Assembly (NCBI GenBank): GCA_022825195.1
Contig: JAJDYL010000101.1
Span: 7,740-71,739 of the forward strand
DNA: 64,000 bases
Source of the DNA: Alphaproteobacteria bacterium
GTDB taxonomy: Bacteria; Pseudomonadota; Alphaproteobacteria; Bin95
Direction of reading: 5' to 3'
The position numbers and the translations under genes are program-made. Shown one piece after another: positions 1 through 54,652 of the stretch. How positions within the stretch are numbered: the stretch's first letter is position 1; every line of letters begins with the position of its first letter. The notes under the pieces are model-generated. The model saw nothing but the letters and a program-made list of their open reading frames with translations. It was not told where the DNA came from and made no database searches.

Positions 1-1047
1 CTGGAGCTGCTGGACGAGAGCTACGAGTTCCGGCGGTCCACGGATTTCATCAGCAGGAATTTCTCCGGCGTGGAAACCTACGAATACTCGCTCAGCGCCG
101 GGCGGGAAGGCGGCGTCACGGATGTCGACTACCTGAAGCGGGTGGACGCATTTGCGGCCTGGTACCGGACGCAGCCGGAAGTCGCCCACGTCTTCGCGAT
201 CTCCGACATCGTGAAGCGCCTGAACAGGAACCTGCATGGCGACGACCCCGACGAGTACCGCCTGCCGGGGGATTCGGACCTCGCCGCGCAATATCTGCTG
301 CTCTACGAATTCTCGCTGCCGGCCGGGCGCGACCTGAACAATCTGATCGACGTCGACCGGTCTTCCACGCGCATGACCGTCGTGTTGAAGAGCCTTTCCA
401 CCGCCGAGAAGATCGCGCTCGACGACCGTGCGCAGGGCTGGTTGCGGCAGAACGCCCCCGGAATGGAAACCGGCGCCACCGGCGTGGCGCTTGTCGGGGC
501 CCATTCGATCCAGAGGAACATAGAAGGCATGCTGCTCGGCACCGTCATCGCGATGGGCCTCGTCTCGCTGCTCCTGCTTCTCGTCTTCAAGAGCGTGCGC
601 CTCGGCGCGATCAGCCTGATACCCAATTTCGTTCCCGCCGCCATGGCGATGGGCCTGTGGGGCTATGTCGTGGGCGAAGTCGGGGTCGCGGCGTCGGTCG
701 TCACCGCGATCGCCTTCGGCATCATCGTGGACGACACCATCCACTTCATGACCAAATATGTTTCGGCCAGGAAGAGCGGGCTGCTGCCGTCGGAATCGGT
801 CCAGTCCGCCTTCCGCTCCGTCGGCCGGGCGCTGCTGGCGACGACGGTGGTGTTCGGGCTCGGATTCATGGTGTTCGCGGCATCGGGGCTGGTGACCAAC
901 CAGGCGCTCGGCCTGCTCGTGGGAATGACGGTCGTCATCGCGCTTCTGGCCGACTTCCTGTTCCTCCCGCCGCTGCTGATGGCGCTCGACCGCGCCGGGG
1001 AGACGAGCGCGGAGATCAGGGAGCGGCTGCGGCGGGAAGCCGGCTAA
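1..1047 (+). CDS. RND-superfamily (MMPL/HpnN-like, COG1033-type) inner-membrane exporter, C-terminal part; 5' end lies outside the window
   Basis: Frame 1 is open from nt 1. The translation shows multiple TM helices and the conserved RND/MMPL C-terminal transmembrane block (GIIVDDTIHFM..., LLADFLFLPPLLMAL). Paired with the LolA-like gene downstream. Confidence 0.75.
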   Translation: MELLDESYEFRRSTDFISRNFSGVETYEYSLSAGREGGVTDVDYLKRVDAFAAWYRTQPEVAHVFAISDIVKRLNRNLHGDDPDEYRLPGDSDLAAQYLLLYEFSLPAGRDLNNLIDVDRSSTRMTVVLKSLSTAEKIALDDRAQGWLRQNAPGMETGATGVALVGAHSIQRNIEGMLLGTVIAMGLVSLLLLLVFKSVRLGAISLIPNFVPAAMAMGLWGYVVGEVGVAASVVTAIAFGIIVDDTIHFMTKYVSARKSGLLPSESVQSAFRSVGRALLATTVVFGLGFMVFAASGLVTNQALGLLVGMTVVIALLADFLFLPPLLMALDRAGETSAEIRERLRREAG

Positions 1048-1124
1048 CCCGGCGTATTATGCTATCCTGCAGGAAAAGGCTTCGGCGGGGCCGTACGCGC
1101 CCCGGCTGCCGACAGGAGGAAACG

Positions 1125-1934
1125 GTGATACGCGCATTTCTCTCCCGCCCGCTGCCTGCGCTTTTCGGGCTCTTGCTTGCGGTCTTCGCCTGGCCGGCAG
1201 GCCTGGCGGCCGAAAGCGCCGAGGAAGCCGGGCTCAGGATCGCGACGGACGCCCGCGAACGGCAAAAGGGCTTCGGCAATTTCATCGCAGGCATGACCAT
1301 GACGCTCCGCAACAAGCGGGGCCAGGAGAGCCGCCGGGAAGTCCGCCTGAAGGTCATAGAGGTCGAGGCGGACGGCGACCGCACCCTGTTCGTGTTCGAC
1401 CGGCCGCGCGATGTCCGGGGAACGGCGTTTCTCGTCCACGCCCACAAGGAGGAGGCCGACGAGCAGTGGCTCTATCTCCCCGCCCTGAAGCGGGTCAAGC
1501 GCATCAGCTCCTCGAACCAGTCGGGTTCCTTCATGGGCAGTGAGTTCTCATACGAGGATCTGGGCACCCCCGAGGTCGAGAAATTCACCTATCGCCATCT
1601 CCGCGACGAAGCCTGCGGCGAACTCGAGTGCGTGGTTCTGGAGCGCGTGCCGACCGACAAGGATTCCGGATATTCCAGCCAGCTTGTCTGGTTCGACCGG
1701 GAGGAGCTGCGCACCCTGCAGATTCAGTTCTTCGACCGCAGGAAGGCCCATCTCAAGACGATGGTAGTGGAAGGCTACAAGAAATATCTCGGCCGCTTCT
1801 GGCGAAGCAGCAAGATCACGATGACCAACCATCTCACGGGAAAGAGCACCGTGCTGGACTGGTCGGACTACGAGTTCGGCACCGATCTCGACCTCGGCGA
1901 TTTCACACGCACGGCGCTGAAGCGGGCGCGGTAG
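1125..1934 (+). CDS. LolA-like outer membrane lipoprotein-sorting protein family (periplasmic hydrophobic-ligand carrier); GTG start
   Basis: AGGAGGA RBS 7 nt upstream of GTG at 1125. N-terminal signal peptide (LPALFGLLLAVFAWPAGLAAES). Central block EQWLYLPALKRVKRISSSNQSGSFMGSEFSYEDL is characteristic of this family, which commonly sits next to COG1033 RND exporters. Confidence 0.7.
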   Translation: MIRAFLSRPLPALFGLLLAVFAWPAGLAAESAEEAGLRIATDARERQKGFGNFIAGMTMTLRNKRGQESRREVRLKVIEVEADGDRTLFVFDRPRDVRGTAFLVHAHKEEADEQWLYLPALKRVKRISSSNQSGSFMGSEFSYEDLGTPEVEKFTYRHLRDEACGELECVVLERVPTDKDSGYSSQLVWFDREELRTLQIQFFDRRKAHLKTMVVEGYKKYLGRFWRSSKITMTNHLTGKSTVLDWSDYEFGTDLDLGDFTRTALKRAR

Positions 1935-1960
1935 CGCCCGGGCCTAACCGGGTTTCCGCG
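1935..1960. terminator. Weak bidirectional hairpin between convergent genes (cccgg-gcctaa-ccggg followed by ttt)
   Basis: Inverted repeat seen directly in the 10-nt gap between the two converging stop codons. T-run is short, so weak. Confidence 0.25.
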
Positions 1961-2969
1961 CAAGCACGAAATACATCGGCGTGAAGATGCCGAGCCGTCC
2001 GGCCTCCGCGAGGGCGCCGGCGGCGAGATTGAGCAGGGCCGAGACCCGGGTTGTGCCGCGCGGCACGAGTCTCAGCCGTTCGAGCAGCCAGAGCGAACCA
2101 TGGGTCACACGGCGGCCGGCGTCGGAGCTGCGGACGCTGGCGAAAGACAGGCCCGAGCCGGTGAGGGGCTGGTACCAGGGGATCCCCGGCGGCGCCTCGG
2201 CAGCCAGGTCGCGGGCCTCGACCAGCTCGAAGCCGGCATCGCGGACGGCGGCGTCCACCTCGTGCGGCCGGGCGATATCGGGCAGACCGCCGCCATGCTC
2301 CATCTCGGCCTTCAGCCGCCGATGGCCGGGATCGGCACCGTCGAACCGGTCTGTCAGGCAATATTCGTATACCGCCATCTGGCCGCCGGGCCGGAGCAGG
2401 CGAAAGGCTTCGCCATAGACGCCCTTCTTGTCCGGCGCGCAGCAGGTCGCCTCGATGGAATAAGCGGCATCGAACGAGGCGTCGGGCGCATCGACCCGCA
2501 TGAAATCGCATTCGATCCAGTCGGCCAGATGGCCGAGCCCCACCTCGTCGCAGCGCCTTGCGGCGCGTTCGAGCTGCAGCGCGTTGTTGTTGACGCCGAC
2601 GATCCGGGCGCCGGAAAAGCGCGCAATCTCGATCAGCGGCCCGCCCACGCCGCACCCCAGATCGACTGCCGTCATGCCCGGCGCCAGGCCGAGACGGTGG
2701 GCGACATAGTGCTCGTGCCGGGCGAGCGAGGCGGCGAAACTTTCGTTGGCGGCGCGCGGCGCGAAATGGAACGACTGGCCCCAACCATATTCGAAGAAAT
2801 CGGTGACCAGGTCGTAATAGGTGTTCTCGAAATTCCGGTAGTCCGTCTTGCGCTCGTCGAGGCTGTCCTGCGCTGCGCCGCCGTAACGGCGGGCATAGTC
2901 CTCGATGCGGGCGGCGACGCAGTCCCCGCCGCTTCCGTCCTTCAGGATGCCGGTAAGCCTGCGCGCCAT
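1944..2969 (-). CDS. Sterol 24-C-methyltransferase (ERG6/SMT family, class I SAM-dependent methyltransferase)
   Basis: 341 aa. Blocks YYDLVTDFFEYGWGQSFHFA, ESFAASLARHEHY, VDLGCGVGGP (SAM motif I), YSIEATCCAP, PWYQPLTG and C-terminal FTPMYFVLARKP are near-identical to motifs I recall from yeast ERG6 and plant SMT1. Confidence 0.9.
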   Translation of the reverse strand: MARRLTGILKDGSGGDCVAARIEDYARRYGGAAQDSLDERKTDYRNFENTYYDLVTDFFEYGWGQSFHFAPRAANESFAASLARHEHYVAHRLGLAPGMTAVDLGCGVGGPLIEIARFSGARIVGVNNNALQLERAARRCDEVGLGHLADWIECDFMRVDAPDASFDAAYSIEATCCAPDKKGVYGEAFRLLRPGGQMAVYEYCLTDRFDGADPGHRRLKAEMEHGGGLPDIARPHEVDAAVRDAGFELVEARDLAAEAPPGIPWYQPLTGSGLSFASVRSSDAGRRVTHGSLWLLERLRLVPRGTTRVSALLNLAAGALAEAGRLGIFTPMYFVLARKPG

Positions 2970-3115
2970 TGCAAGAACTCAACCCTTATGTCCCGCCGCA
3001 CACCCTATAGTCGGCGGTATGTTTTGTCGTCGGTCGATGCAATACCGAAAATGGGGAAATCGGGCGCACCCGATGCAAGCGGCGGCTTCCCGCGGTGGAA
3101 CCGGCAGGCAACCGG

Positions 3116-5143
3116 TCAGACGGGCAGTGCGCGCCTCTGCTCGGCGACGAGGAATTTCAGCTTCCTGCTCGGCTTCATCGACGGCAGCGGACTGAACCGG
3201 AGCCTGTAATCGGCCGGAGACACTTTGAGCGTGAAATAGTGCGCGACCATCAGCACGTTGACCGCCAGTTGCAGGTCCATCCAGCGGGAGCCGAGGCACC
3301 GGTGCGTGCCCAGTCCGTAAGGTGCGTATCCGGGGCTGCGGTGCTCGTTGCGCGGCGGCTGATGGCGGTCGATATCGAATGAGAACGGATCCGGGAAGGT
3401 CTCTTCCATGTAATGCGGTGCCGTCTGGGCGATATGAAGCCGCGTCCCGACCGGCAATTCGTAGCCCTCGACCACGCAGGAATTCATCACGTTCCTGAGG
3501 GACATCGGAACGATCGGGTACATCCGCAGGCACTCGACAAGAAAACGGTGCGTGACGTCCATCGAGGGCGGACCGAAATCCTCGCCGGCCGGATCGCCGC
3601 CGTCGAACAGGACATCGGCTTCGTTCTGGATTCTCTCGTAAAGCTCGGGCTGCGCCGCCATGGCGTAAACCGCGAAGCTGAACGCATCGCCGAGATACAC
3701 GCTGGCGATAAGTGCTGCCGAAAGGGCGAAGCGCAGATTCGATTCCGGCACCAGTTGCGGATCGCTTGCGTGCAGGCTCAGCAAATCGTCCGCAAGGTCC
3801 CGCGGGCAGCCGGCTCGCTGGGCCGGCGTGTGGACGCTCTGGATCCTCGCCAACAGGGTGTCGATGGCCTTCGCCGTGCGCCTCATTCCCGGCGTGTTCA
3901 GCATGAACCTCGGCAGGGCCCCGATTATGTGCGTGGTGAGCGCCCGCTCCTTGTACGCCATCAGGTTATCGAAGAGGTCCTGGGAATCGACGCTCACCGC
4001 GAGAGAAGAGATTTGCGCATTTATCATTCGCCGGCATGTGCGCGTAGCAGGCAGCGCGTCGCCAACCGTCCAGCTTGCCATGAATTTGCGGCCGTGATGG
4101 TAAATCTGGTCCAACTGGCCCGCCAGCCTCTCCCGCGAATAGGCAGGCGACATGGCCTTGCGGAGCCGGAAATGGTCGGTGCCGTCCAGGGACGGCAATA
4201 CACCGGAGGCGCCGTAGATTTTCTCAAAATCGGCGAAATAGTCCCGGGCCCTCAGATATAACCGCCCGTGCCGGTGCACCCAGCGGTTTATCTCGGAACC
4301 GGCAACGAAAATCATCGGTTCCTTGAACGGAGGACAGATCTGAAAAACCGGGCCGTACCGTTCCGCCAGGTCGGCAAAGAGCGCAGGAATGTTGCCGGTG
4401 CGAATATGCGGACTGAGCAGCAGTCTGCGCAAAGAAACTTTTGGAATTTGTTTGGACAGCGTTGAACGCCGGAGAAGAGGATTGGCTATATTGTGTTTGA
4501 CTGCATCGGCTATGGAACGGCTGATCAAGTCCATCATGCAGATATTTCTGATCCGCTCTTCAGCCTCCTCGTCCAGCTCGAATATGAAACGAAAGACATC
4601 GCATGTATCGACGAGTGAAATAATGATGACATCCCTGGGACCGGGAATCAGATCGGTCAAAATGACCTGGCCGATACGCGCCTTGATAAATTGACCTGCG
4701 GTTCCCTCTCGAGGCCTTCCATCTTGATCGGCAAGAATTTTGTTCGAAGCAAGCGTGTAGAACTCGCCATTATGGCGTTCAAGGATGTTCAGAGCGACCA
4801 AGCGGTCCAGAGTTATCTCGATCACGGATTCGGCATGGAGAACGAGCCGCTCAATCCAGTATTGGGCGTCATGTTGTCCGGGCTCGCAGGCGATCCGGTT
4901 GAGAATGGAATCCAGGGCAGGATCGCCGGTTTCCGTAGCGTCCACCAGGTGCAGCGCCTCCATGTCGGTGTCGAGGCGCGAACGGAGGGAGAGTTCCGCA
5001 AGCACGGCGCCGACAACAGCGCAATTCAGGTCCCAGCCGGGCACCTGGTGAAAGTAGCCGTTCTGCTCGTTGAGGAGCACCAGGATGAGTTCGTCGGGCA
5101 AACTCAGCGCCGGCGTCGTCGAAATCGTCTCGGTACCAGCCAT
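3116..5143 (-). CDS. Two-domain protein: N-terminal GPP34/GOLPH3-like domain (about 225 aa) fused to a C-terminal cytochrome P450
   Basis: Start taken at MAGTETIS (ATG preceded by GAGGAGG); the track ORF extends 43 codons further upstream from a TTG. N-terminal part matches the GPP34 pattern (LSLPDELILVLLNEQNGYF...WDLNCAVVGAVLAELSL...GDPALDSILNRIA...AQYWIERL). C-terminal part has P450 ExxR (ECLRMYP) and the heme-thiolate loop YGLGTHRCLG. No canonical AGxD/ETT I-helix threonine is visible. Confidence 0.8.
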   Translation of the reverse strand: MAGTETISTTPALSLPDELILVLLNEQNGYFHQVPGWDLNCAVVGAVLAELSLRSRLDTDMEALHLVDATETGDPALDSILNRIACEPGQHDAQYWIERLVLHAESVIEITLDRLVALNILERHNGEFYTLASNKILADQDGRPREGTAGQFIKARIGQVILTDLIPGPRDVIIISLVDTCDVFRFIFELDEEAEERIRNICMMDLISRSIADAVKHNIANPLLRRSTLSKQIPKVSLRRLLLSPHIRTGNIPALFADLAERYGPVFQICPPFKEPMIFVAGSEINRWVHRHGRLYLRARDYFADFEKIYGASGVLPSLDGTDHFRLRKAMSPAYSRERLAGQLDQIYHHGRKFMASWTVGDALPATRTCRRMINAQISSLAVSVDSQDLFDNLMAYKERALTTHIIGALPRFMLNTPGMRRTAKAIDTLLARIQSVHTPAQRAGCPRDLADDLLSLHASDPQLVPESNLRFALSAALIASVYLGDAFSFAVYAMAAQPELYERIQNEADVLFDGGDPAGEDFGPPSMDVTHRFLVECLRMYPIVPMSLRNVMNSCVVEGYELPVGTRLHIAQTAPHYMEETFPDPFSFDIDRHQPPRNEHRSPGYAPYGLGTHRCLGSRWMDLQLAVNVLMVAHYFTLKVSPADYRLRFSPLPSMKPSRKLKFLVAEQRRALPV

Positions 5144-5387
5144 CAGCCATGGCCTCCTCGTACCCGAAACCGCCCCGTGCCACCGATACGAGGCTCCGGA
5201 GCGGCGGGCATGAGACCCGTGGACACGGCCAGTGAAATGAACATGTTCGGAACAACCGTAATCCCGCGCCAAGGCGAATCCGGAGACATGAGGAGCCGTC
5301 GTCGTTCACCTTACACTGTGGAATGTCGACCAAAGATGGCCGACAGTCAAGTCTGCGGTGTTCCAGCCGGCCTGGACAGTGTTGATT

Positions 5388-6503
5388 CTATTGCTGAAAT
5401 CTGACGCTGCGCCTGCGCGCCGGACTATCGTCCGATGGTGGCGCAATCCGTTCCAGGGGCGGCCGGTGGAATAGTTGACCGTCCGGGTAGAACTGCTCGC
5501 AGTAGCGCCGGAATTTTCCGATCGGGCCGTCCGAGCGGCAGAGCCCCGGGTGGAGCCGGTATCGTTTCCGGCCCCAGATGACCACGTCCTGCAACACATC
5601 GTGTTTCTGGGCCGTCACGATGATCTTGTTCATGAGCCGGGTGCGCAGCCGAACAGGAAGGAATCGCATTCCGACGATCGGCCGCTTAGGCTTCAGCAGC
5701 CGCCGCACCTGGCTCACCAGTGTCATTTCGACCAGCTCGCCGTCGATGGGCGTTGCGAGCACCCATAATCGGGTGTCCATGCCGATATAATGTTCACGAA
5801 CCTCGACATAGGAATATCCGAGGCCGTGCACATGGGTTACGGCGGAAACATCGTAGGTGAAGCACTTCATTCCCAAGGCGGTCTGGGTTCGCCTGAAGTC
5901 GAAGCAACTCTTGAGCCAGGTTCCTTCTACCGATACCGGGCCGACCGCGTTCACGCTGTCATAGCCGTGCACATAGCGCAGATGCCCGAGATCGACGGAA
6001 TTCTCGGTCGTTTCCTGGGGATGCCCCGCAAATCGGACGCGCCGGACTTCCATCTCGCTCCAGTCGCTGTCGTCGGGCGGGGAAGCGGGCAGATCCCACT
6101 GTGGCGGCCGTCCGCCGCTGCCGCGCCAGGCAAAGACGAGACCCAGAATTTCGCGCGTCTCAAACACTCTCAATCTGGCGGACCGGGGCGGCGGCGCGTA
6201 GGGCGTCGCCACGCACTGACCGGTGACGTCATATTCGAACCCATGAAACGGACAGACGAGGCAACCGTTGCGCACCCGGCCTCCCGCCTCGGGCCCCAGA
6301 TCCGCGCCCAGATGGGGGCAGACCGCTACGGCTACGCAAACATCGCCGTTCCCGTTACACCAGACGACAATCCGTTCGCCAAGCCAGGTCTTTTGCAACA
6401 GCTTTTTGTCTTCTATCGTCTGGCGGCTGGCGACGAAATACCAGCCTTCCGGAAATGGAAAAAGCGAGGGAATACCGTCGGGATCGTTCGAACTGATTTG
6501 CAT
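5388..6503 (-). CDS. Rieske [2Fe-2S] non-heme-iron oxygenase, KshA/Neverland/SdmA-like
   Basis: Rieske motif CPHLGADL...(17 aa)...CPFHGFE and mononuclear iron motif D-x2-H-x4-H (DLGHLRYVHG). GGGAGAG RBS upstream of ATG. Confidence 0.85.
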   Translation of the reverse strand: MQISSNDPDGIPSLFPFPEGWYFVASRQTIEDKKLLQKTWLGERIVVWCNGNGDVCVAVAVCPHLGADLGPEAGGRVRNGCLVCPFHGFEYDVTGQCVATPYAPPPRSARLRVFETREILGLVFAWRGSGGRPPQWDLPASPPDDSDWSEMEVRRVRFAGHPQETTENSVDLGHLRYVHGYDSVNAVGPVSVEGTWLKSCFDFRRTQTALGMKCFTYDVSAVTHVHGLGYSYVEVREHYIGMDTRLWVLATPIDGELVEMTLVSQVRRLLKPKRPIVGMRFLPVRLRTRLMNKIIVTAQKHDVLQDVVIWGRKRYRLHPGLCRSDGPIGKFRRYCEQFYPDGQLFHRPPLERIAPPSDDSPARRRSVRFQQ

Positions 6504-6753
6504 GCGATACGGACTCTCCCAGGTCCGGCGGTCGCGGTCTTCCCCAACCGATTAATCGGTCCGGCAGCGAAGGTAATTATATACCTTACAATATCGCGTA
6601 AGGCGCGGCAACGGAAACAGTCAGCGAAGTGGAAACGGCTCCAACCTCAAACCGCATTCGACAACTTCGCGATACCGGCCGGTCGGGATTTCATGTCCGG
6701 CTCGGGCATCTCCGGAAATCCGGGAGCGAAGCCTGCCTGCAGACGGTGGTAGT
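6504..6753. promoter_or_regulatory. Divergent promoter region between the Rieske-P450-SMT operon (minus) and the COG2907 gene (plus)
   Basis: 250-nt AT-richer spacer (attaatcggtccggcagcgaaggtaattatatacc) with a small hairpin ccttac-aatatcgc-gtaagg. No operator consensus recognised. Confidence 0.3.
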
Positions 6754-8145
6754 ATGGGGGCGATGAATGAAACGGCGCAAGCAGCCTTGCCGAGAAGGAT
6801 TGCCATTATCGGCGCAGGCGTCTCCGGACTGGGGGTAGCCTGGGCGCTGCACCGCCATCCGGACCGGTTCGATTTCCGACTGTTCGAAGCCCAGGCCCAA
6901 ATCGGCGGAAACGCCATTACGGTAGATATGCCGCAGGACGACGGCACGTCGGTTCCTTTCGATATTTCGGTCACTGCCTGCATTCCCTCAGTCTATCACC
7001 ATATTGTCCTGCTCATGCAGCAGCACGGCATAGAACTGGTCGATACCAGATTCAGCTACAGCGTAAAGTACCGAGGCGGTATCTACGCTCACGATTTCGA
7101 CTCCGAAATCAGGAGGCAGCTGCAACCGGAAATCGACAAATTCCAGAGGCTCCTGAGATGTTTGAGGCGAGTGGGCACGCTCAACCGGTCCAGGTCCAGA
7201 CTGCTCAATGCTCTCAACCCGTTGAACTATGTCAGCATGGGCGCACTGCTCAATTTGGGCAGATTCTCCGGAGACTTCAGATACAAGATACTCAAGCCTA
7301 TGTTTGTCAATTTCCTGATGGCGACGAATGTATTCGATATGTCCGCTTCCCTGTTTGCCCGCTATTTGGAATTCTTCGATATTGAAACAGCAACCCCTAT
7401 GCAAACCTGGAAACAGGGAACACGGAGAATCTATGAAGAAATTTCAGCAGGTTTTCGGGAAAAGATTTACCTTAGCCGACCGGTTCATAAAGTATACCGC
7501 CATCGGTCAAAAGTGGTTGTAGAGGATGAGGGTGGGAATATGGAAACATTCGACGATGTCGTTCTTGCGTGCAATGCAAATCAGACATTGATGATTCTCG
7601 ACAAACCGTCTTTTTTGGAAAGCAGCCTTCTGTCTTCGGTCCGATACGAAAGCGAGTTGCATAACCACACCGTCGTGCATTCTGACGCGTCCGTCCTTCC
7701 GGATAACGAGGCCAGGCCCCTCGCCACGCGGAGCAACCATATCGAACAGTACGGCACCAGGCCCGACAATTACGAAATCACCTACATCATGCACAATCAG
7801 CAGCCTTGGGCGAAACGGTCGGACAAGCCCTGCCTCGTCACCTACAATCCGATCAGCCCTATCGACGAGGCTAGGATCGTCAGGAAGTGGTGGTTCCAGC
7901 ACATCGTCCACGATGTCCGCCATGTGACGGTTCTGACGCAGCTGTTTCGCTTCATCCAGGGCAGGAGGCGGACATGGCATTGCGGGGCCCACACGCTGAT
8001 CAACAGCCAGGAGACCTGTTTCGTATCCGGCCTTGTCACCGCGGGGCAGCTGGGCGCGGGCTATCCGTTTCAGGACGCTGAGGCACGGCGCTGGTTCAAC
8101 TTTTACGGGCGCATAATGTTCGGCTGGCGCTTCCGGAAGGCCTGA
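6754..8145 (+). CDS. FAD/NAD(P)-binding amine-oxidase-like oxidoreductase, COG2907 family (the family usually found beside cyclopropane-fatty-acid synthase genes)
   Basis: N-terminal Rossmann fold RIAIIGAGVSGLGVAW...FEAQAQIGGNAITV. Overall layout matches COG2907 members as I recall them (VVLACNANQTLMIL, C-terminal WHCGAH...SGL). Confidence 0.7.
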   Translation: MGAMNETAQAALPRRIAIIGAGVSGLGVAWALHRHPDRFDFRLFEAQAQIGGNAITVDMPQDDGTSVPFDISVTACIPSVYHHIVLLMQQHGIELVDTRFSYSVKYRGGIYAHDFDSEIRRQLQPEIDKFQRLLRCLRRVGTLNRSRSRLLNALNPLNYVSMGALLNLGRFSGDFRYKILKPMFVNFLMATNVFDMSASLFARYLEFFDIETATPMQTWKQGTRRIYEEISAGFREKIYLSRPVHKVYRHRSKVVVEDEGGNMETFDDVVLACNANQTLMILDKPSFLESSLLSSVRYESELHNHTVVHSDASVLPDNEARPLATRSNHIEQYGTRPDNYEITYIMHNQQPWAKRSDKPCLVTYNPISPIDEARIVRKWWFQHIVHDVRHVTVLTQLFRFIQGRRRTWHCGAHTLINSQETCFVSGLVTAGQLGAGYPFQDAEARRWFNFYGRIMFGWRFRKA

Positions 8146-8255
8146 ATCCGGCTTGTTCCGCCGCTTGCCATCGACGGCGGGCCTGCTGTATCCAGCCTTC
8201 GGCCCCGGAGGGGTCAGGCAACCGGTCGGATCGGGGAGGGAGCGGGAACAGGGAA

Positions 8256-8331
<76 letters not shown>

Positions 8332-8491
8332 AATCCGGGCGGCTTCTAGCCGCTCTCCACCGGCGGGTCAAGCGAGCGGCCGGGCATTTGGGAAGGGCTT
8401 CAAGGATGCAAGAGACAGCGATCGCCGCGCCGTTTGCCGAACTGCAGGGGGGCAGGAGGGCGGGTTCGGCGCCGGGTACCGGGCGCAGCCG

Positions 8492-10135
8492 GTGATTTTC
8501 GATCCGATTCTTCCGGCCTGGCGGGCGGAAAAGCACCGCGCCGAGGGCCATTGGCGCGACCGCATCCTGCTCGACTATTTCGACGAGGCTGTTGCGCGCA
8601 AGCCGGACGCCGTCGCGGTCGTCGCCCGTTGCATGGAGGACGGCGGCGAGACCGTGCTGTCCTGGCGCCAGCTCAAGCGGCTTTCCGACAGGATGGCCCT
8701 CGGCCTTCACATGCACGGTCTGCGGAAGGGAGATGTGCTCGCCTTCCAGCTCCCCAACTGGTGGCAGTTTTATTGCTTGCACATTGCCTGTCTTCGCATC
8801 GGCGTCTGCTCCAACCCGCTGATGCCGATTTTCCGCGAGCGCGAGCTGGCCTTCATGGTCGATTTTGCGGAAGCGAAGGCGCTGGTCACGCCGAAGATGT
8901 TTCGCGGCCACGACCACGCGGCCATGGCGCGGGAGCTCCGGTCCGCATTGCCGAAGCTGGAGCACCTGTTCGTCGTCGGCGAAAACTTCGAGACCGCGCT
9001 GCTGGACCCCACGCTTGACCAGGAGCTGGATGCCGCGACGGTGTTCGCGGCCGGAAGGCCGGACCCGGACGAGGTGATCCAGCTGCTCTACACCTCCGGC
9101 ACGACCGGCGAGCCCAAGGGGGTGATGCACACCTCCAACACGCTGATCGCCATGGTGATGAGCTATGTCGAGCGCATCGGCCTCGGCGAGGACACGGCGA
9201 TCCTGATGGGCTCTCCGTTGGCGCACCAGACGGGGTTCATGTACGGCCTGATGCTCTCGCCCGTGCTCGGCGCCAAGACCTGCTACCTCGACATCTGGGA
9301 TCCGGAGGCGGCGCTTCGGCTGATCCAGGACGAGGCCGTGACCTTCACCATGGGGGCGACGCCGTTCCTGGCCGACCTCGCCAACAGCCCCGTGCTCGAC
9401 CGCTACGACATTTCGAGCCTGGAGGCCTTCGTGTCCGCCGGGGCGCCGATCCCGCGCGTGCTGGTCGAACAGGCCGGAGAGCGCCTCGGCTGTTTCGTCC
9501 ATTCCGGCTGGGGCATGACCGAAAACGGCTTCGGCTCGGGCACGAGGAGGACCGACCCGCCGGCGCGCGTGTTCGGGACGGACGGCAGCGCCGTGTCCTG
9601 CCTGGAAGTGCGCGTGGTCGGGGAAGACGGAGCGCCGGTTCCGGACGACGAGGAAGGGCGCCTGCAGGTGCGGGGCGCCGGCCAGTTCGTCGGCTATCTG
9701 AAGCGCCCGGAGCGCTACGACACGGACGCGGACGGGTGGTTCGAGACCGGCGACAATGCCCGGATGGACGCCGACCGCTATATCAGGATATCGGGCCGGT
9801 CCAAGGACATCATCATCCGGGGCGGCGAGAACATTCCCATCGTCGAGGTCGAGGAACTGCTCTACCGGCATCCCGGGGTGGCGGACTGCGCCATCGTCGC
9901 CATGCCGGACGACCGCCTCGGCGAGCGGGCATGCGCCTTCGTGACGCTTCGGCCCGGTGCGGAGACGCTGACGTTCGATGCGATGTGCGGCTTCCTGCTG
10001 GAGCGCCGGCTGGCGAAGCCTTACCTGCCCGAGCGCCTGGAACTGGTGGACGCCATGCCGCGCACGGCTTCCGGGAAGATCCAGAAATTCCGCCTGCGCG
10101 AACTCGCGGCCGATCTCAGGCCAATGCGGGAATGA
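8492..10135 (+). CDS. AMP-dependent acyl-CoA synthetase/ligase
   Basis: AMP-binding signature LYTSGTTGEPKGVMHTSNT and C-terminal GEN/SGKIQK motifs. GTG start. Confidence 0.85.
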   Translation: MIFDPILPAWRAEKHRAEGHWRDRILLDYFDEAVARKPDAVAVVARCMEDGGETVLSWRQLKRLSDRMALGLHMHGLRKGDVLAFQLPNWWQFYCLHIACLRIGVCSNPLMPIFRERELAFMVDFAEAKALVTPKMFRGHDHAAMARELRSALPKLEHLFVVGENFETALLDPTLDQELDAATVFAAGRPDPDEVIQLLYTSGTTGEPKGVMHTSNTLIAMVMSYVERIGLGEDTAILMGSPLAHQTGFMYGLMLSPVLGAKTCYLDIWDPEAALRLIQDEAVTFTMGATPFLADLANSPVLDRYDISSLEAFVSAGAPIPRVLVEQAGERLGCFVHSGWGMTENGFGSGTRRTDPPARVFGTDGSAVSCLEVRVVGEDGAPVPDDEEGRLQVRGAGQFVGYLKRPERYDTDADGWFETGDNARMDADRYIRISGRSKDIIIRGGENIPIVEVEELLYRHPGVADCAIVAMPDDRLGERACAFVTLRPGAETLTFDAMCGFLLERRLAKPYLPERLELVDAMPRTASGKIQKFRLRELAADLRPMRE

Positions 10136-11973: not shown

Positions 11974-12201
11974 ATGAACCTCACGATCTCTATAGACGAC
12001 GACATTCTCGAACACGCCCGGATCAGGGCAATTCGGGAAAAGACGTCCGTCAATGCAGTCGTGCGGGAATATCTGCACGCCTATGCGGGAGTTGACCGTC
12101 AACGCGCCGAAGCCTGCGATTCGCTGTTGGCCTTGTCGCAGGCGAGCGGTTCCCGGCGGGGTGGGGCGGTCTGGACGCGCAGCGAACTCCATGAGCGTTG
12201 A
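11974..12201 (+). CDS. vapB: VapB-type antitoxin (type II TA)
   Basis: 75-aa protein; GGAGG RBS. Overlaps the downstream PIN-domain gene by 11 nt. Confidence 0.65.
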   Translation: MNLTISIDDDILEHARIRAIREKTSVNAVVREYLHAYAGVDRQRAEACDSLLALSQASGSRRGGAVWTRSELHER

Positions 12202-12616
12202 GTGGAAGTTCGTCGACACGAATGTGCTGGTCTATCTGTTCGATGTCGATGCGCCGGACAAACGCGCGCGCGCGCAGGCACTCCTGCGCGAAGAGAAGGA
12301 CTGCATCGTGTTGAGCATACAGGTCCTCGGCGAATTCTATGTGACGGTAACGCGGAAATTCACAGAGTCGTTAAGCCGTGAATCCGCGGCCCGGGCCGTC
12401 GATGCATTCAGCCGGTTTCGCGTCCAGCCGGTTCATCCGGAGACGGTGAACGCCGCCATCCGTCGAAGTCGTTCGACACTGCTGTCCTACTGGGATGCAT
12501 TGATCGTCGAGGCGGCGTTGACCGCCGGAGCGGGCGTGCTCTTTACCGAGGACCTTCAGGACGGCCAGCGGATCGAAGGCTTGCAGATCGTCAATCCGTT
12601 CCGAAGCGGCGGCTGA
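12191..12616 (+). CDS. vapC: VapC PIN-domain toxin
   Basis: FVDTNVLVY...SIQVLGEF...YWDALIV...FTED; PIN acidic residues present. ATG overlaps the stop of the upstream antitoxin. Confidence 0.8.
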   Translation: MSVEWKFVDTNVLVYLFDVDAPDKRARAQALLREEKDCIVLSIQVLGEFYVTVTRKFTESLSRESAARAVDAFSRFRVQPVHPETVNAAIRRSRSTLLSYWDALIVEAALTAGAGVLFTEDLQDGQRIEGLQIVNPFRSGG

Positions 12617-14267: not shown

Positions 14268-15584
14268 TCAGCCGACGATATTCTGGATCATCAACCGCGG
14301 CAGCCAGAGCACGATGCCGGGGAAGGCGACGAGCACGGCGACCGTGATGATGTCCGCCACGAAGAACGGCCAGATACCCTTGAAGACTTCCTCCAGCGGG
14401 ATATCCGGACGCACGCCGTTGACGACGAAGCAATTGAGCCCGATGGGCGGCGTGACCAGGCAGACCTCCACCATCTTGACGATGATGATGCCGAACCAGA
14501 CCGGGTCGTAGCCGAGCGCCGTGACCGCCGGATAGACGACCGGCAGGGTCAGCAGCAGCATCCCGATGCCGTCCATGAACATGCCCAGCACGACATAGGC
14601 GAGCAGGATCAGGATCATCACGACCAGCGGCGGCACATCGATGCTGACTATGAAGGTAGCAAACGCCTCGGGCAGGCCCGAGAAGCCGAGGAACCGCACA
14701 TAGATCAGGATCGACCAGATGATCGTGAAGATGAAAACCGTGAGCTTCGCGGTTTCCATGAGCGATTCGCGCAAGTTTGCGAGGCTCATATTGCGCTTCG
14801 CAAGCGCAATCAGGAAGATCACGAATGCGGCGACGCCGCCGACTTCGGTCGGGGTCATCACGCCCGTGTAGATGCCGCCCAGGATGATGAAGATCACGAA
14901 GAAGATGCCGGAAGCCCCTGCCAGGGACCGGAACTTCTCGGCCAGCGGAACAGCAGACACCGGCGCGCCCAGAGACGGGTTCAGCTTGCAGCGAAAGATA
15001 ATCAGCGCCGCATAGATAACCGCCGAAAGCGCGCCGGGTATGAATCCCGCGAGCAGCAATGCGCCCACCGATTCCTCGACGATGATGGCGTAGATCACCA
15101 GGATGGCGCTCGGCGGGATGAGCGACGCGAGCGTGCCGCCGGCGGCAACGACGCCGGCTGCGAGGCTGCGCTCGTAGCCGTATTTCAGCATTTCCGGAAT
15201 CGCGACGCGGCTGAACACGGCGGCCGTTGCCGTCGAGGCGCCGGACACCGCAGCGAAACCGGCGGTCGCGAACACGGTCGCGACGGCAAGCCCGCCGGGC
15301 AACGTGCCCAGCCAGCATCTGGCCGCGTAGAACGCGCTCCGGGTCAGCCCGGCATAGAACGCCAGGAAACCGATGAGGATGAACATCGGAAGCACCGACA
15401 GGGTGACATGGCTGACCTGGGAATGGGCGAGCAGGCCGGCGAGACCGGCTCCGGGGTCGTAACCCCGCAGCATTATCAGCCCGATGACGCCTGCAATTCC
15501 GGAAGCATAGGCTACCCGCACACCGAGCACGACCATCCCGATGATGAACGCGACCGACACGAGACCTGCATTGAACGGATCCAT
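14268..15584 (-). CDS. dctM: TRAP transporter large permease subunit
   Basis: 438 aa, polytopic membrane protein with DctM-family features. Confidence 0.85.
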   Translation of the reverse strand: MDPFNAGLVSVAFIIGMVVLGVRVAYASGIAGVIGLIMLRGYDPGAGLAGLLAHSQVSHVTLSVLPMFILIGFLAFYAGLTRSAFYAARCWLGTLPGGLAVATVFATAGFAAVSGASTATAAVFSRVAIPEMLKYGYERSLAAGVVAAGGTLASLIPPSAILVIYAIIVEESVGALLLAGFIPGALSAVIYAALIIFRCKLNPSLGAPVSAVPLAEKFRSLAGASGIFFVIFIILGGIYTGVMTPTEVGGVAAFVIFLIALAKRNMSLANLRESLMETAKLTVFIFTIIWSILIYVRFLGFSGLPEAFATFIVSIDVPPLVVMILILLAYVVLGMFMDGIGMLLLTLPVVYPAVTALGYDPVWFGIIIVKMVEVCLVTPPIGLNCFVVNGVRPDIPLEEVFKGIWPFFVADIITVAVLVAFPGIVLWLPRLMIQNIVG

Positions 15585-15598
15585 AACCGCAAACCCCC

Positions 15599-16255
15599 TT
15601 AAGCCTTGGAGCTGCCGTCGGACGGATCCGTCGGGCCTTCGCTCTCTCGTCCCATGACCTCTTCGATCTCCGCCCTGGCATGCTCCGCGGCGTCCATGAT
15701 GACCGGCACCGCCTGCGGAACCTTGTCAGGATCGAGCGCCAACCGTCCATAGCCCCAAACCTGGATGATCAACCGTATGCACAGCAGGACCAGAGCGATG
15801 GGAACGACCAGTTTTCCAGGCCAGGTCTGGAGTTGCACGTCGATCGTGCTGTCGCCCTCGATGATGGACCTCAGAAAATGCTCCCAGCTCTTGTCGATGA
15901 TAATGAGGCAATAGACGACGCCGATGCAGACGGCGAAACATTCGACGCCCCACAACAATCTGCCGCGCATCTTTGCGACAACCAGTTCCATACGAACATG
16001 CACGCCCAGCCTCTGCGCGTAAGCGGCAGGGAGGAAAGCAAAGATCGCCATGTAAACTTCAATCCAGTCGATCGCGCCCGGAATCGGCCGGTTGAACACA
16101 TATCGGCCAATGACTTCGCAGACGACAAACAGCATCAACAAGAAGATAAACGCTGCCGCGAAAAGCGTGACGGCATCCTCTATGCGGCCGAAAAAGCGAT
16201 CTATACTCGACAAAGCGCTGTTCTGGCGCCCGTTTTGCGTCTGAGCCTGAGCCAT
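15599..16255 (-). CDS. dctQ: TRAP transporter small permease subunit
   Basis: 218 aa, four TM helices, located between dctM and dctP. Confidence 0.8.
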   Translation of the reverse strand: MAQAQTQNGRQNSALSSIDRFFGRIEDAVTLFAAAFIFLLMLFVVCEVIGRYVFNRPIPGAIDWIEVYMAIFAFLPAAYAQRLGVHVRMELVVAKMRGRLLWGVECFAVCIGVVYCLIIIDKSWEHFLRSIIEGDSTIDVQLQTWPGKLVVPIALVLLCIRLIIQVWGYGRLALDPDKVPQAVPVIMDAAEHARAEIEEVMGRESEGPTDPSDGSSKA

Positions 16256-16344
16256 AGAATTCGCTTCCTCCCCTTATGACAAACAACAGAATGGGGCCGC
16301 TCTCGGCGGAACGGCCCCACTCAGACTTATGAGGACTACGGCCT

Positions 16345-17379
16345 CTATGCTTCCTTGTTGTGATGCGCCGCGCGCTCGAGAACGAAGTCGAGAAGCTCTT
16401 GCGCGGGAAGCTTGTCCTTGTTCTCTGCAACCCACTCGTTCCAGACCGGCTCCGCACCGATCTTCACGAACTCGGCATGCTGCTCCTTGGTGAACTCCAC
16501 CCGCTCCATGGCCTTTTCGTAGATCGGGATCCACTTCTTGTCGGCCTCTACGTAAGCGGAGATCAACGCGTTGTAGGAGTTCCACTTCATCTCGTCGTTG
16601 AACAGCGCCCGGTATTCGTCCGGGAGGGCGTTGTAGGCAGTGACGCTCATGATCTGCGGGCAGAAGACCGATCCCAGCGCCATCCCTTCCGTGTACCACT
16701 TGGCGACTTCGTGGTGCCTGTAGGCGCCGAAGGCGTAGCTGTAGGGGAAGGTCATCACCTGGATGGTGCCGCGCTCGAGGGCCGTGTAGCTCTCCGACGC
16801 CGTCACCGTAGTTGGAACTGCGCCCAGCTTGTCGAAGAACTGGCCGATGCCGCCGAGACCGCGGACCCGCAAGCCCTCGAAGTCCGCCGCGCTCCTCGGC
16901 GGGTCGCCGACGCCCATCGCCTCATATTGCGGCAGGATGCCGGAGAAGATGGGGATGGCGTTCCAGCGCTTCATCTCCTTCTTGAATTCCGGATGCCCGA
17001 TGAAGTCCTCATGCACCTTCGCCTGCACCGTCAGGTCGGAGATGGGCAGGAACGGCAGGTCCAGCACCGTGCCGGCCGGGTTCTTGCCGGGATGGTAGGA
17101 GGTGCACATCATCGCGGCTTCGTGGCTGCCGATCTTGATGCCGTCGATGTTCTCCTTCGAGGGCGAGATCGCCTCGCCGTAATGAACCTTGAGCTTGAAA
17201 TTGCCCCCCGATTTCTCGGCGAGATATTCGCTCATTGCGTCGATGCCCTTGGTGAAGGCCCGCGGCTTGCCCCAGGCGGAGAAGTTCCAGAGCACCTCAT
17301 CGGCGGCGGAAGCGGACACGGCGACGCCTCCCACCATGGCCGCCGCGGCTACGCCGCATGCCAGACGTACGATCTTCAT
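16345..17379 (-). CDS. dctP: TRAP transporter substrate-binding protein
   Basis: Start taken at MKIVRLA (signal peptide; AAGGGAG RBS). The track ORF extends 31 codons further upstream. Confidence 0.8.
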   Translation of the reverse strand: MKIVRLACGVAAAAMVGGVAVSASAADEVLWNFSAWGKPRAFTKGIDAMSEYLAEKSGGNFKLKVHYGEAISPSKENIDGIKIGSHEAAMMCTSYHPGKNPAGTVLDLPFLPISDLTVQAKVHEDFIGHPEFKKEMKRWNAIPIFSGILPQYEAMGVGDPPRSAADFEGLRVRGLGGIGQFFDKLGAVPTTVTASESYTALERGTIQVMTFPYSYAFGAYRHHEVAKWYTEGMALGSVFCPQIMSVTAYNALPDEYRALFNDEMKWNSYNALISAYVEADKKWIPIYEKAMERVEFTKEQHAEFVKIGAEPVWNEWVAENKDKLPAQELLDFVLERAAHHNKEA

Positions 17380-17579
17380 GTTTGCACTCCCTTGGTCGCT
17401 GGATGTTTCCCCTCTGGCGAGGACCCAATCCGTCGGTCGTTCACAATAGCAAGTCCGGATACGCGCCTGCAAGCCGGTCGAAACACGGCCTCGGACAAGG
17501 CTGACCCGTTGCCGGGGGCCGCCGGGACGGCGCCGCGGCGCTGCTTAACCCTGCCCGCCCGCTTTGGTAGCCTTCGTGC

Positions 17580-53554: not shown

Positions 53555-53562
53555 CCGGTCGG

Positions 53563-53614
53563 CCCTACCGCGTCGGGATGGGGTGGTCGCCGGAATAATC
53601 GTAGAAGTCGCGGC
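53563..53614. repeat. Direct repeat copy 1 (52 bp, 50/52 identical to 54653-54704): a duplicated 3' end of hbd
   Basis: ccctaccgcgtcgggatggggtggtcgccggaataatcgtagaagtcgcggc. Its reverse complement encodes ...DFYDYSGDHPIPTR*. Confidence 0.8.
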
Positions 53615-54624: not shown

Positions 54625-54652
54625 GATTAAATGCTCTTTGGGCCGTCTGTCG

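What the first reader, a model, noticed from the sequence alone, without database searches (positions are those of the whole stretch)
5388..6503. KshA/SdmA-like Rieske oxygenase co-transcribed with a P450 and the sterol methyltransferase
It has the Rieske CxH...CxxH motif and the D-x2-H-x4-H iron site. The family includes 3-ketosteroid 9-alpha-hydroxylase, cholesterol 7-desaturase (Neverland) and the bacterial sterol C-4 demethylase SdmA. Its position at the head of an operon ending in the SMT argues for a sterol-ring or side-chain oxidation role. No reductase partner (KshB or SdmB) is visible in the window.
Basis: partly seen in the sequence, partly recalled or inferred. Interest (0 to 1): 0.6.

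Follow-up and report, generated by a model that had tools for sequence, protein, structure and literature searches.

The report
Sponge-symbiont sterol-tailoring Rieske oxygenase module
The gene is a real, intact Rieske iron oxygenase distantly related to the steroid hydroxylase KshA, and it marks a so far undescribed gene module (oxygenase, unusual P450 fusion, sterol methyltransferase, flavin oxidase, lipid pump) found in sponge-associated bacteria of about ten bacterial phyla, which probably tailors and exports sterols.

Summary
ORF 5388-6503(-) encodes a 371-aa Rieske oxygenase with all metal ligands: C62/H64/C84/H87, D171-x2-H174-x4-H179 and D306.

It is KshA-like, not SdmA. Pfam KshA_C scores 1.7e-24, and the best solved relatives and best fold matches are KshA. 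The SdmA equivalog model scores 26 bits against a 600-bit cut-off. It lies outside the KshA clade, in a large family that carries only generic names.

No reductase partner, oxidosqualene cyclase or steroid-catabolic gene was found by Pfam scans of the window's GC3-selected long ORFs. Crude motif screens found no KshB-like reductase or triterpene cyclase within +/-10 kb of 83 related loci.

Close relatives (64-80% identity) occur in MAGs of about ten phyla. Many of these are recognisably sponge symbionts, and the window itself comes from an Ircinia sponge metagenome. These relatives repeatedly sit beside:
- a GPP34-P450 fusion
- MMPL or AcrB RND pumps
- sterol methyltransferases
- an LkcE-like FAD oxidase
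- a LolA-like protein
- in some phyla, ERG4/ERG24 and 3-beta-HSD genes

Gene order is shuffled between genomes, so the "operon" is only local.

Best reading: a sterol hydroxylase or desaturase within a horizontally spread sterol tailoring-and-export module. The position it attacks is unknown.

The parts
5388..6503 (-). Rieske non-heme-iron oxygenase, 371 aa. Rieske domain residues 21-105, KshA_C catalytic domain residues 126-339. Ligands C62, H64, C84, H87; bridging D171; Fe ligands H174, H179, D306.
3116..5143 (-). GPP34 (N-terminal) fused to cytochrome P450 (C-terminal), 675 aa. True start is ATG 5143, 9 nt after AGGAGG. The heme-thiolate motif is GLGTHRCLG.
1944..2969 (-). Sterol C-24 methyltransferase family protein, 341 aa. 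Has the Sterol_MT_C domain and the motifs GWGQSFHF, DLGCGVGGP and IEATC.
6754..8145 (+). FAD-dependent amine-oxidase-family protein, 463 aa, LkcE-like. Transcribed divergently from the Rieske gene.
6504..6753 (.). 250-bp divergent intergenic region between the Rieske and FAD-oxidase genes. It holds an AT-rich stretch (TTGTAAGGTATATAAT) that may carry the promoters. This is inferred only.
1125..1934 (+). LolA-like / TP_0789-like periplasmic lipid-carrier-type protein, 269 aa, with a signal peptide. Starts at GTG 1125 after GGAGGA.
1..1047 (+). C-terminal part of an MMPL/HAE3-family RND transporter, cut by the window start. Full-length homologues are about 785-800 aa and give faint to weak sterol-sensing-domain hits.
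8256..8331 (-). tRNA-Phe (GAA), directly at the right-hand border of the module. The P450, Rieske and FAD-oxidase genes have lower GC than the rest of the window.

Best explanation
The ORF encodes a soluble Rieske non-heme-iron monooxygenase of the KshA fold. By analogy to the solved KshA structures it is probably a homotrimer.

Inferred mechanism, following the established one for this enzyme class:
1. Electrons from NAD(P)H arrive through an unlinked, generic reductase or ferredoxin.
2. They reach the [2Fe-2S] cluster (C62, H64, C84, H87).
3. They cross the subunit interface through D171 to the mononuclear Fe(II) held by H174, H179 and D306.
4. There O2 is activated to hydroxylate or desaturate a C-H bond.

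The substrate is most likely a sterol. The enzyme is the signature gene of a sterol tailoring-and-export module made of:
- the Rieske oxygenase
- a GPP34-P450 fusion
- a C-24 sterol methyltransferase
- an LkcE-like FAD oxidase
- an HAE3/MMPL RND pump
- a LolA-like periplasmic carrier

The module has spread among sponge-associated bacteria of about ten phyla and is kept under strong purifying selection. The oxidised and methylated sterol would be handed to the RND pump and carrier for delivery to the outer membrane or the outside.

Shown: the intact catalytic apparatus, the KshA-type fold, the recurrent gene neighbourhood and the cross-phylum distribution.
Inferred: the sterol substrate, the direction of transport and the electron donor.
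Unknown: the carbon atom attacked, and whether the sterol is made by the bacterium or taken from the host.
For: Catalytic machinery and fold
- The catalytic machinery is complete and conserved.
- The structure model (pLDDT 75.7) matches KshA5, KshA1 and Mtb KshA best (TM 0.71-0.73), ahead of SxtT/GxtA, DdmC and NdmA.
- The family profile scores 192 bits on KshA against 121 on SxtT.

Neighbourhood in 83 related loci (tblastn)
- P450 in 56, MMPL in 36, SMT in 31, FAD oxidase in 25, LolA-like in 15.
- ORF clustering with Pfam annotation of representatives adds AcrB-type RND plus MFP plus a 488-aa family not Pfam-checked and read by eye as an outer-membrane factor (21/18/15 loci), ERG4/ERG24 sterol reductase (5), 3-beta-HSD (5) and SDR-DUF2867 (6).
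- Of four more distant relatives examined (41-55% identity), two sit next to a GPP34-P450 and an RND pump (one also near an SMT), one next to an AcrB-type pump only, and one (a 645-aa fusion) next to none of these.

Sterol link
- The SMT keeps the motifs that the Brown & Welander preprint found in all functional SMTs: GWGxxFHF, DxGxGxxGP and E195, plus F81.
- MMPL homologues give Patched and sterol-sensing-domain hits.

Source and distribution
- The window is a contig of the Ircinia sponge metagenomes of Kelly et al. 2022. There, ERG24-CYP51-LSS clusters occur in 115 of 537 MAGs of 10 phyla, so sterols are available in these communities.
- Mean identity between phyla is 63%, reaching 75-80% for Nitrospirota-Alphaproteobacteria and Gemmatimonadota-Latescibacterota pairs.

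Reductase
- SdmA works in E. coli without a dedicated reductase (PMC10202945). The missing partner is therefore no obstacle.
Against: - No biochemical datum exists for any member. Every relative carries only a generic name.
- The sterol assignment rests on guilt by association. SMT-like enzymes can methylate other isoprenoids (my own knowledge: the Botryococcus triterpene methyltransferases).
- Gene order and strand are not conserved, and 24 of the 66 loci with a clustered Rieske ORF have no P450 within +/-10 kb.
- About 30% of the 83 loci show none of the partner genes nearby. Some of these loci are short contigs.
- Neither OSC nor any other early sterol gene is in the window, so the source of the sterol is open.
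- The Rieske relatives on Streptomyces and Planktothrix plasmids (30-34% identity) show that the wider family is not restricted to sterol contexts.
Confidence: 0.55

Rival explanations
1. It is a catabolic KshA: a 3-ketosteroid 9-alpha-hydroxylase that opens ring B so that host or dietary steroids can be degraded through the 9,10-seco pathway. Holert et al. 2018 proposed this for the divergent 'KshA' genes found only in sponge MAGs.
For: - KshA is the closest characterised and solved relative.
- Holert et al. found sponge-only KshA clusters with signs of horizontal transfer (PMC5790920).
- The window holds many CoA-transferase, enoyl-CoA hydratase, acyl-CoA synthetase and 3-hydroxyacyl-CoA dehydrogenase genes.
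Against: - The family is a sister group of KshA, not inside it (78/100 NJ bootstraps; 22-24% structural-alignment identity).
- A crude motif screen found no KshB-like ORF, and no recurrent reductase family or family recognisable as KstD or Hsa appeared. No search with KstD or Hsa queries was made.
- The recurrent partners are anabolic or export genes: SMT, ERG4/24, RND pumps.
- The beta-oxidation-type genes of the window lie beyond the tRNA border and are not conserved next to the gene elsewhere.
Confidence: 0.1
2. It is the C-4 sterol demethylase oxygenase (an SdmA analogue). It oxidises the 4-methyl group of 4,4-dimethyl or 4-methyl sterols, as the first reader suggested testing.
For: - SdmA is also a Rieske oxygenase acting on sterols, and the weak best NCBIfam hit is the SdmA model.
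- Kelly et al. could not annotate sdmA or sdmB in their MAGs.
- A 3-beta-HSD-type or SDR gene, the kind of partner SdmB is, lies near the gene in a few phyla.
Against: - The SdmA equivalog score is 26 bits against a 600-bit cut-off, and it covers only the Rieske half.
- True sdmA/sdmB pairs (44-47% identical to MCA1016/1017) exist in sponge-symbiont OSC clusters and belong to a different family.
- No SdmB-like gene is adjacent in the window.
Confidence: 0.07
3. The substrate is not a sterol. It is another hydrophobic compound that the adjacent RND pump exports: a hopanoid or other triterpenoid, a carotenoid-like lipid or a secondary metabolite. The SMT-like enzyme methylates that compound.
For: - The nearest non-KshA structural relatives hydroxylate alkaloids or demethylate aromatics: SxtT/GxtA, DdmC, NdmA.
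- Relatives at 30-34% identity lie on Streptomyces and Planktothrix plasmids.
- The FAD oxidase resembles LkcE of lankacidin biosynthesis.
- Many loci lack an SMT.
Against: - The SMT keeps the sterol-binding Region I and all checked functional motifs.
- ERG4/ERG24 and 3-beta-HSD genes co-occur in several phyla.
- Transporter homologues give sterol-sensing and Patched hits.
- None of the recurrent neighbour families (largest 40 listed, ten representatives Pfam-checked) is a PKS, NRPS or terpene synthase.
- No hopene-cyclase motif was found.
Confidence: 0.15

Closest known systems
KshA, oxygenase of 3-ketosteroid 9-alpha-hydroxylase (PDB 2zyl, 4qck, 4qdc, 4qdd, 4qdf)
   Same: - Same two-domain architecture (Rieske plus KshA_C).
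- Same metal ligands and bridging Asp.
- Same C-terminal 'QDxxIW...DGPxxxxRRxxxQFY' helix region.
- Best sequence match (92 bits single sequence, 192 bits profile) and best fold match (TM 0.71-0.73).
   Different: - Only 22-24% identical in the structural alignment.
- Falls in a separate sister family.
- About 20 residues shorter.
- No KshB was found by a motif screen, and no KstD- or Hsa-like family recurs nearby. Its neighbours are anabolic and export genes instead.
SdmA, bacterial sterol C-4 methyl oxidase (Methylococcus MCA1016; NCBIfam NF052579)
   Same: A Rieske oxygenase acting on a sterol in a biosynthetic setting. Like SdmA it may work with host or generic redox partners.
   Different: Fails the equivalog model by a wide margin (26 against 600 bits). 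It has no SdmB partner next to it. It sits in a different cluster from the OSC-CYP51-ERG24-sdmAB clusters of sponge symbionts.
Neverland / DAF-36 / DES7 cholesterol 7-desaturases (eukaryotic Rieske enzymes)
   Same: From my own knowledge: KshA-related Rieske enzymes that desaturate the sterol nucleus in an anabolic pathway. This is the kind of chemistry that would fit beside an SMT and an ERG4-type reductase.
   Different: No sequence was available here, so the relationship was not tested. Those enzymes are eukaryotic and membrane-anchored. This protein is bacterial and has no predicted anchor.
CSG sterol clusters (ERG24-CYP51-LSS) of Ircinia symbionts (Kelly et al. 2022) and the sponge-symbiont SMT clusters of Brown et al. 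2023
   Same: The source is the same for the CSGs, since the window is a contig of the Kelly data set. Both cluster types share the theme of sterol genes, including SMTs, spread by horizontal transfer across many symbiont phyla and kept under purifying selection.
   Different: The module here has none of the CSG core genes. It consists of genes those papers do not mention: the KshA-like Rieske gene, the GPP34-P450 fusion, the LkcE-like FAD oxidase, and the MMPL and LolA-like genes.
HpnN (hopanoid) and BstA (sterol) RND transporters
   Same: The neighbouring pump is an HAE3/MMPL RND protein. Like HpnN and BstA, it would move a polycyclic lipid towards the outer membrane.
   Different: It scores far below both equivalog cut-offs (HpnN 55.6 against 751.85; BstA 27.7 against 1400, on a C-terminal fragment). 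It is paired with a LolA-like protein (Pfam TP_0789-like). No homologue of BstB or BstC was tested for.

Membership tests
Rieske non-heme-iron oxygenases, KshA_C-bearing (alpha-only) group | Rieske [2Fe-2S] ligands CxH...CxxH | tested here: met
   C62-P-H64 and C84-P-F-H87 are present. Pfam Rieske scores 2.1e-17. The ligands are invariant in A1 and A2.
Rieske non-heme-iron oxygenases, KshA_C-bearing (alpha-only) group | Mononuclear iron 2-His-1-carboxylate site plus bridging Asp (D-x2-H-x4-H ... D) | tested here: met
   D171, H174 and H179 are present. D306 aligns to the KshA QDxEIW motif. All are conserved.
Rieske non-heme-iron oxygenases, KshA_C-bearing (alpha-only) group | KshA_C catalytic domain and fold | tested here: met
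   PF19298 scores 87.5 bits against a 23.3-bit cut-off. Foldseek ranks the KshA structures first, TM 0.71-0.73.
KshA (3-ketosteroid 9-alpha-hydroxylase) | Falls inside the KshA clade (orthology) | tested here: not met
   In the NJ tree rooted on GxtA, the whole family excludes the three KshA sequences in 78 of 100 bootstraps. Identity in the structural alignment is 22-24%.
KshA (3-ketosteroid 9-alpha-hydroxylase) | Works with KshB and lies in a 9,10-seco catabolic gene context (kstD, hsa genes) | tested here: not met
   No such Pfam families appeared among the scanned long ORFs of the window. A motif screen found no KshB-like ORF in 83 related loci. No recurrent reductase, KstD-like or Hsa-like family appeared, though no KstD or Hsa query was run. 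The rest of the genome could not be searched.
KshA (3-ketosteroid 9-alpha-hydroxylase) | 9-alpha-hydroxylation of 3-ketosteroids | not testable with these tools
   This needs an enzyme assay.
SdmA (4-beta-methylsterol monooxygenase) | Reaches the NCBIfam equivalog score (NF052579, 600 bits) | tested here: not met
   The score is 26.2 bits and covers residues 21-174 only.
SdmA (4-beta-methylsterol monooxygenase) | Paired with the SdmB reductase/decarboxylase gene | tested here: not met
   There is no SDR or 3-beta-HSD gene in the module in the window. A 3-beta-HSD gene lies nearby in only 5 of 83 loci.
Neverland/DAF-36 cholesterol 7-desaturase | Clade membership and 7,8-desaturase activity | not tested
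   No Neverland or DAF-36 sequence could be obtained with the tools, and the AlphaFold-database fold library was unavailable.
Sponge-symbiont sterol biosynthesis cluster (CSG: ERG24-CYP51-LSS) | Presence of the three core genes | tested here: not met
   None of the three is among the scanned long ORFs of the window. The P450 here is only 59 bits from CYP51 and is fused to GPP34. No cyclase motif was found in 83 loci.

The most novel reading that the evidence does not exclude
The module may let sponge symbionts take up host sterols rather than their own. This would include symbionts that lack an oxidosqualene cyclase. They would oxidise the nucleus (Rieske, P450, FAD oxidase), alkylate the side chain (SMT) and pump the products back out. 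Bacteria of many phyla would then be a direct source of the unusual sponge sterols: nuclear-oxidised or desaturated and 24-alkylated forms, including biomarker precursors. The remodelled sterols could also serve as a host-like surface coat that helps the bacteria persist in the sponge.
Probability: 0.2. Interest if true: 0.85.

Novelty: new variant of a known kind. Interest (0 to 1): 0.62.

Why it matters
Bacterial sterol biology still lacks enzymes for most steps after C-14 and C-4 demethylation. It also has only one characterised transport system.

This family offers a concrete, highly conserved candidate set for such steps: a Rieske oxygenase, a GPP34-P450 fusion, an FAD oxidase, an SMT, an RND pump and a LolA-like carrier. 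At least 586 loci in a collection of species-representative genomes encode a relative.

Its concentration in sponge symbionts ties it to two open questions. The first is who makes the odd sterols of sponges, including the 24-alkyl sterols used as Neoproterozoic 'sponge' biomarkers. The second is why sterol genes are a defining, horizontally shared trait of sponge microbiomes.

The set can be tested directly with the E. coli sterol expression systems already in use.

Tried and rejected
- The AlphaFold-database fold search (afdb50) was not available. UniProt-named relatives such as Neverland could therefore not be ranked.
- A tree including SdmA and Neverland could not be built, because no sequences of these were obtainable. 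KshA and GxtA sequences were recovered from printed PDB alignments instead. The first tree script timed out.
- Motif searches for triterpene cyclases (DCTAE or DDTA plus QW repeats) and for KshB-like reductases found nothing in 5,681 ORFs of 83 loci plus the window's first 20 kb.
- No vehicle of transfer was found: no relative on viral contigs and nothing above 35% identity on plasmids.
- No direct repeat of the tRNA-Phe end was found within 1-9000. The left end of the module lies outside the window.
- Recent transfer was rejected as a general explanation. Gene GC follows host GC (r = 0.89), and the nearest neighbour is from the same phylum in 52 of 62 cases. Transfers are therefore mostly old, followed by vertical descent.
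- Literature searches for this module found nothing (GPP34+P450+sterol; sponge+SMT+P450 cluster; sponge+MAGs+KshA+sterol).
- The promoter and terminator scans were uninformative.
Full report
**The observation**

An independent gene call on the public source contig gives the same protein.
- The sequence contains C62-P-H64 and C84-P-F-H87, the Rieske ligands.
- It contains D171-L-G-H174-L-R-Y-V-H179, which is D-x2-H-x4-H.
- The carboxylate ligand is D306, which aligns with the QD(V/I)EIW motif of KshA.
- All these residues are invariant or nearly so in 34 close relatives (A1) and 40 relatives down to 29% identity (A2).
- Pfam finds Rieske (2.1e-17) and KshA_C (1.7e-24), both well above gathering scores.

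**Family placement**

- Against all solved structures the best sequence matches are three KshA proteins (E = 3e-25 to 3e-23). Next come SxtT/GxtA and dicamba monooxygenase.
- A family profile raises KshA to 165-192 bits against 121 for SxtT.
- An AlphaFold model (pLDDT 75.7, pTM 0.75) matches the KshA structures best by Foldseek (TM 0.71-0.73, 22-24% identity). SxtT/GxtA, DdmC and NdmA follow.
- NCBI's equivalog model for SdmA gives only 26 bits against a 600-bit cut-off, and only over the Rieske half. The protein is not an SdmA.
- A full scan of 1.8 billion cluster representatives found 401 relatives at E <= 1e-30. Many are full-length at 30-55% identity, far closer than KshA.
- In a neighbour-joining tree rooted on GxtA, all of these form a group that excludes KshA in 78 of 100 bootstraps. 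The window protein sits in a tight sub-clade.
- None of the relatives looked up carries anything but a generic name.
- Neverland/DAF-36 could not be tested. No sequence was available, and the AlphaFold-database library was off-line.

**The neighbourhood in the window**

On the minus strand, downstream of the Rieske gene:
- A 675-aa protein that is a fusion of an N-terminal GPP34 (GOLPH3-like) domain and a C-terminal P450. Its true start is ATG 5143, 9 nt after AGGAGG. The P450 part is remote from every solved P450: best match 66 bits, CYP51 59 bits.
- A 341-aa sterol methyltransferase with the Sterol_MT_C domain. It has the motifs GWGQSFHF, DLGCGVGGP and IEATC, and a Phe at the 'position 81' that Brown & Welander link to function.

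Diverging from the Rieske gene is a 463-aa FAD amine-oxidase-family protein. Its only solved full-length relative is LkcE (95 bits).

On the other side lie a LolA-like/TP_0789-like protein and the C-terminal part of an MMPL/HAE3 RND pump.

A tRNA-Phe lies directly at the right border.

The P450, Rieske and FAD-oxidase genes have 54-61% GC (GC3 0.68-0.73). The rest of the window has 68% (GC3 about 0.85-0.9).

The intergenic gaps are 244 and 146 bp with no terminator-like hairpin. Co-transcription is therefore possible but not shown.

Pfam scans of the window's GC3-selected long ORFs from 8.5 to 64 kb found no KshB/FNR-type reductase, no cyclase and no kstD or hsa genes. Short ORFs, including those at about 37.9-40.1 kb, were not scanned.

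**Related loci**

A scan of one genome per species (185,579 species) found at least 586 loci that encode a relative. The 80 best are 63-80% identical. By their record titles they come from these groups:
- Alpha- and Gammaproteobacteria, including Candidatus Poriferihabitaceae (Arenicellales)
- Nitrospirota
- Nitrospinota
- Thermodesulfobacteriota and Dadabacteria
- Acidobacteriota
- Latescibacterota
- Rhodothermales
- Gemmatimonadota
- single records labelled Spirochaetia and Bifidobacteriaceae, which may be misbinned

Many names and isolate tags are those of sponge-symbiont MAGs. Sponge genome notes list such taxa among sponge cobionts. The window itself is scaffold_563 of a 'KELL22' metagenome, that is the Ircinia sponge data of Kelly et al. 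2022. The sponge link of the generically named MAGs is an inference from names, not a measured enrichment.

Within +/-10 kb of the gene in 83 loci, tblastn with the window's proteins finds:
- the P450 in 56
- the MMPL pump in 36
- an SMT in 31
- the FAD oxidase in 25, at 73-83% identity across phyla
- the LolA-like protein in 15

De novo clustering of all ORFs, with Pfam annotation of cluster representatives, adds:
- AcrB-type RND pumps in 21 loci, their membrane-fusion proteins in 18, and a 488-aa family in 15 that I read as outer-membrane factors but did not check with Pfam
- ERG4/ERG24 sterol reductases in 5 loci
- 3-beta-HSD in 5 loci
- SDR-DUF2867 proteins in 6 loci
- no recurrent reductase family and no recurrent cyclase

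Four more distant relatives were examined:
- at 55% identity, a GPP34-P450 and an MMPL/Patched/SSD pump
- at 49%, an AcrB-type pump
- at 41%, a GPP34-P450, an AcrB-type pump and an SMT
- a 645-aa fusion protein at 41% identity, none of these

Order and strand vary. The P450 follows within 600 bp on the same strand in only 9 of the 66 loci with a clustered Rieske ORF, 42 of which hold a P450. The association is thus a functional neighbourhood, not a fixed operon.

**History**

- Gene GC follows host GC (r = 0.89).
- The nearest neighbour comes from the same phylum in 52 of 62 cases.
- Mean identity is 74% within phyla and 63% between them, with a minimum of 53%.
- Cross-phylum pairs reach 75-80%: Nitrospirota with Alphaproteobacteria, and Gemmatimonadota with Latescibacterota.

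This pattern fits old horizontal transfers between symbiont lineages, then vertical descent under strong purifying selection.

No copy was found on viral contigs, and no close copy on plasmids.

**What is already known**

- Kelly et al. 2022 showed that ERG24-CYP51-LSS clusters and SMTs are enriched, horizontally transferred and under purifying selection in Ircinia symbionts of 10 phyla.
- Brown et al. 2023 showed that sponge-symbiont SMTs are active. Their clusters contain genuine sdmA/sdmB genes, 44-47% identical to MCA1016/1017.
- Holert et al. 2018 noticed sponge-only 'KshA' clades with signs of transfer and read them as catabolic.
- Term searches in the three papers found no mention of a GPP34-P450 fusion, an LkcE-like oxidase or this MMPL and LolA-like pair. 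Three further literature searches found nothing on the module.

**Interpretation**

The best-supported reading is a sterol hydroxylase or desaturase that works beside the P450, the FAD oxidase and the SMT. Its products are passed to an RND pump and a periplasmic carrier.

The electron donor is probably a generic reductase or ferredoxin encoded elsewhere. SdmA homologues oxidise lanosterol to the 4-methylaldehyde when expressed alone in E. coli.

Two points remain open:
- The position attacked. A nuclear desaturation or hydroxylation would fit the enzymes it travels with, by analogy to KshA, SdmA and Neverland.
- The origin of the sterol. OSC clusters are common in the same microbiomes, so tailoring of the bacterium's own sterols is at least as likely as remodelling of host sterols.

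The rivals are less likely for the reasons given with each: a catabolic KshA, an SdmA analogue, or a non-sterol substrate.

**Verdict**

The finding is real. The gene belongs to a new, uncharacterised variant of the KshA-like Rieske oxygenases. Its genomic company and its distribution among sponge symbionts make it worth an experiment.

Noticed in passing
window 3116-5143 (-): The P450 is fused to an N-terminal GPP34 (GOLPH3-like, phosphoinositide-binding in eukaryotes) domain. GPP34-P450 fusions of about 630-680 aa accompany the Rieske gene in 51 of the 84 sources clustered (83 loci plus the window) and in relatives at 41-55% identity. No literature on such a fusion was found.
   Followed up: partly
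window 6754-8145 (+): The LkcE-like FAD amine-oxidase-family protein is the most conserved gene of the module, at 73-83% identity across phyla. Its role is unknown: sterol oxidation, desaturation or something else.
   Followed up: partly
window 8256-8331 (-) and 3000-8200: A tRNA-Phe lies directly beside the module. The P450, Rieske and FAD-oxidase genes have clearly lower GC (54-61%) than the rest of the window (68%), which suggests a genomic island. No flanking repeat of the tRNA end was seen within the window.
   Followed up: partly
window 53562-53614 and 54652-54704: Two 53-nt direct repeats (96% identical) flank a 1.09-kb low-GC insert. The insert carries an orphan 199-aa ORF with a signal-peptide-like N-terminus (54025-54624, minus strand).
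   Followed up: no
window 1944-2969 (-) versus L004/L005 and other loci: At least two SMT types travel with the module. The window's SMT is 85% identical to those of L004 and L005, 69-71% to L024 and L031, and only about 40% to the SMT found in most other loci. Both types have the Sterol_MT_C domain.
   Followed up: partly
L045, L065, L069, L071 (Dadabacteria/Thermodesulfobacteriota loci): In these loci the Rieske gene sits tail-to-tail with the MMPL pump. Nearby are an ERG4/ERG24-family sterol reductase, an SMT, an SDR-DUF2867 protein and, in some, a 3-beta-HSD. No P450 is present.
   Followed up: partly
L065 versus L069: The Rieske protein of a MAG labelled Spirochaetia is 96% identical to that of a Thermodesulfobacteriota MAG, and the neighbours are the same. 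This is either a binning error or a very recent transfer. A MAG labelled Bifidobacteriaceae (L059) is similarly suspicious.
   Followed up: no
L087/L088 (protein P0284, 645 aa): Acidimicrobiia relatives (41% identity) carry an extra N-terminal region of about 290 aa with no Pfam match. They lie next to hydrogenase maturation genes, not sterol genes. The protein is indexed in 103 blocks of the assembly collection.
   Followed up: no
window 12053-12616 (+), 37524-37952 (-), 26977-28434 (+), 58237-59085 (-), 14268-17472 (-): The window also holds two PIN-domain toxin genes, a sulfatase, a TauD-family dioxygenase and a TRAP transporter. Several family III CoA-transferases and luciferase-like monooxygenases are present too. 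I recall such gene content being reported for sponge symbionts.
   Followed up: no
L002 14477-21080: A second DUF1302-DUF1329-BNR-MMPL transporter set lies a few kb from the module in one large MAG. This hints that several lipid-export systems cluster there.
   Followed up: no
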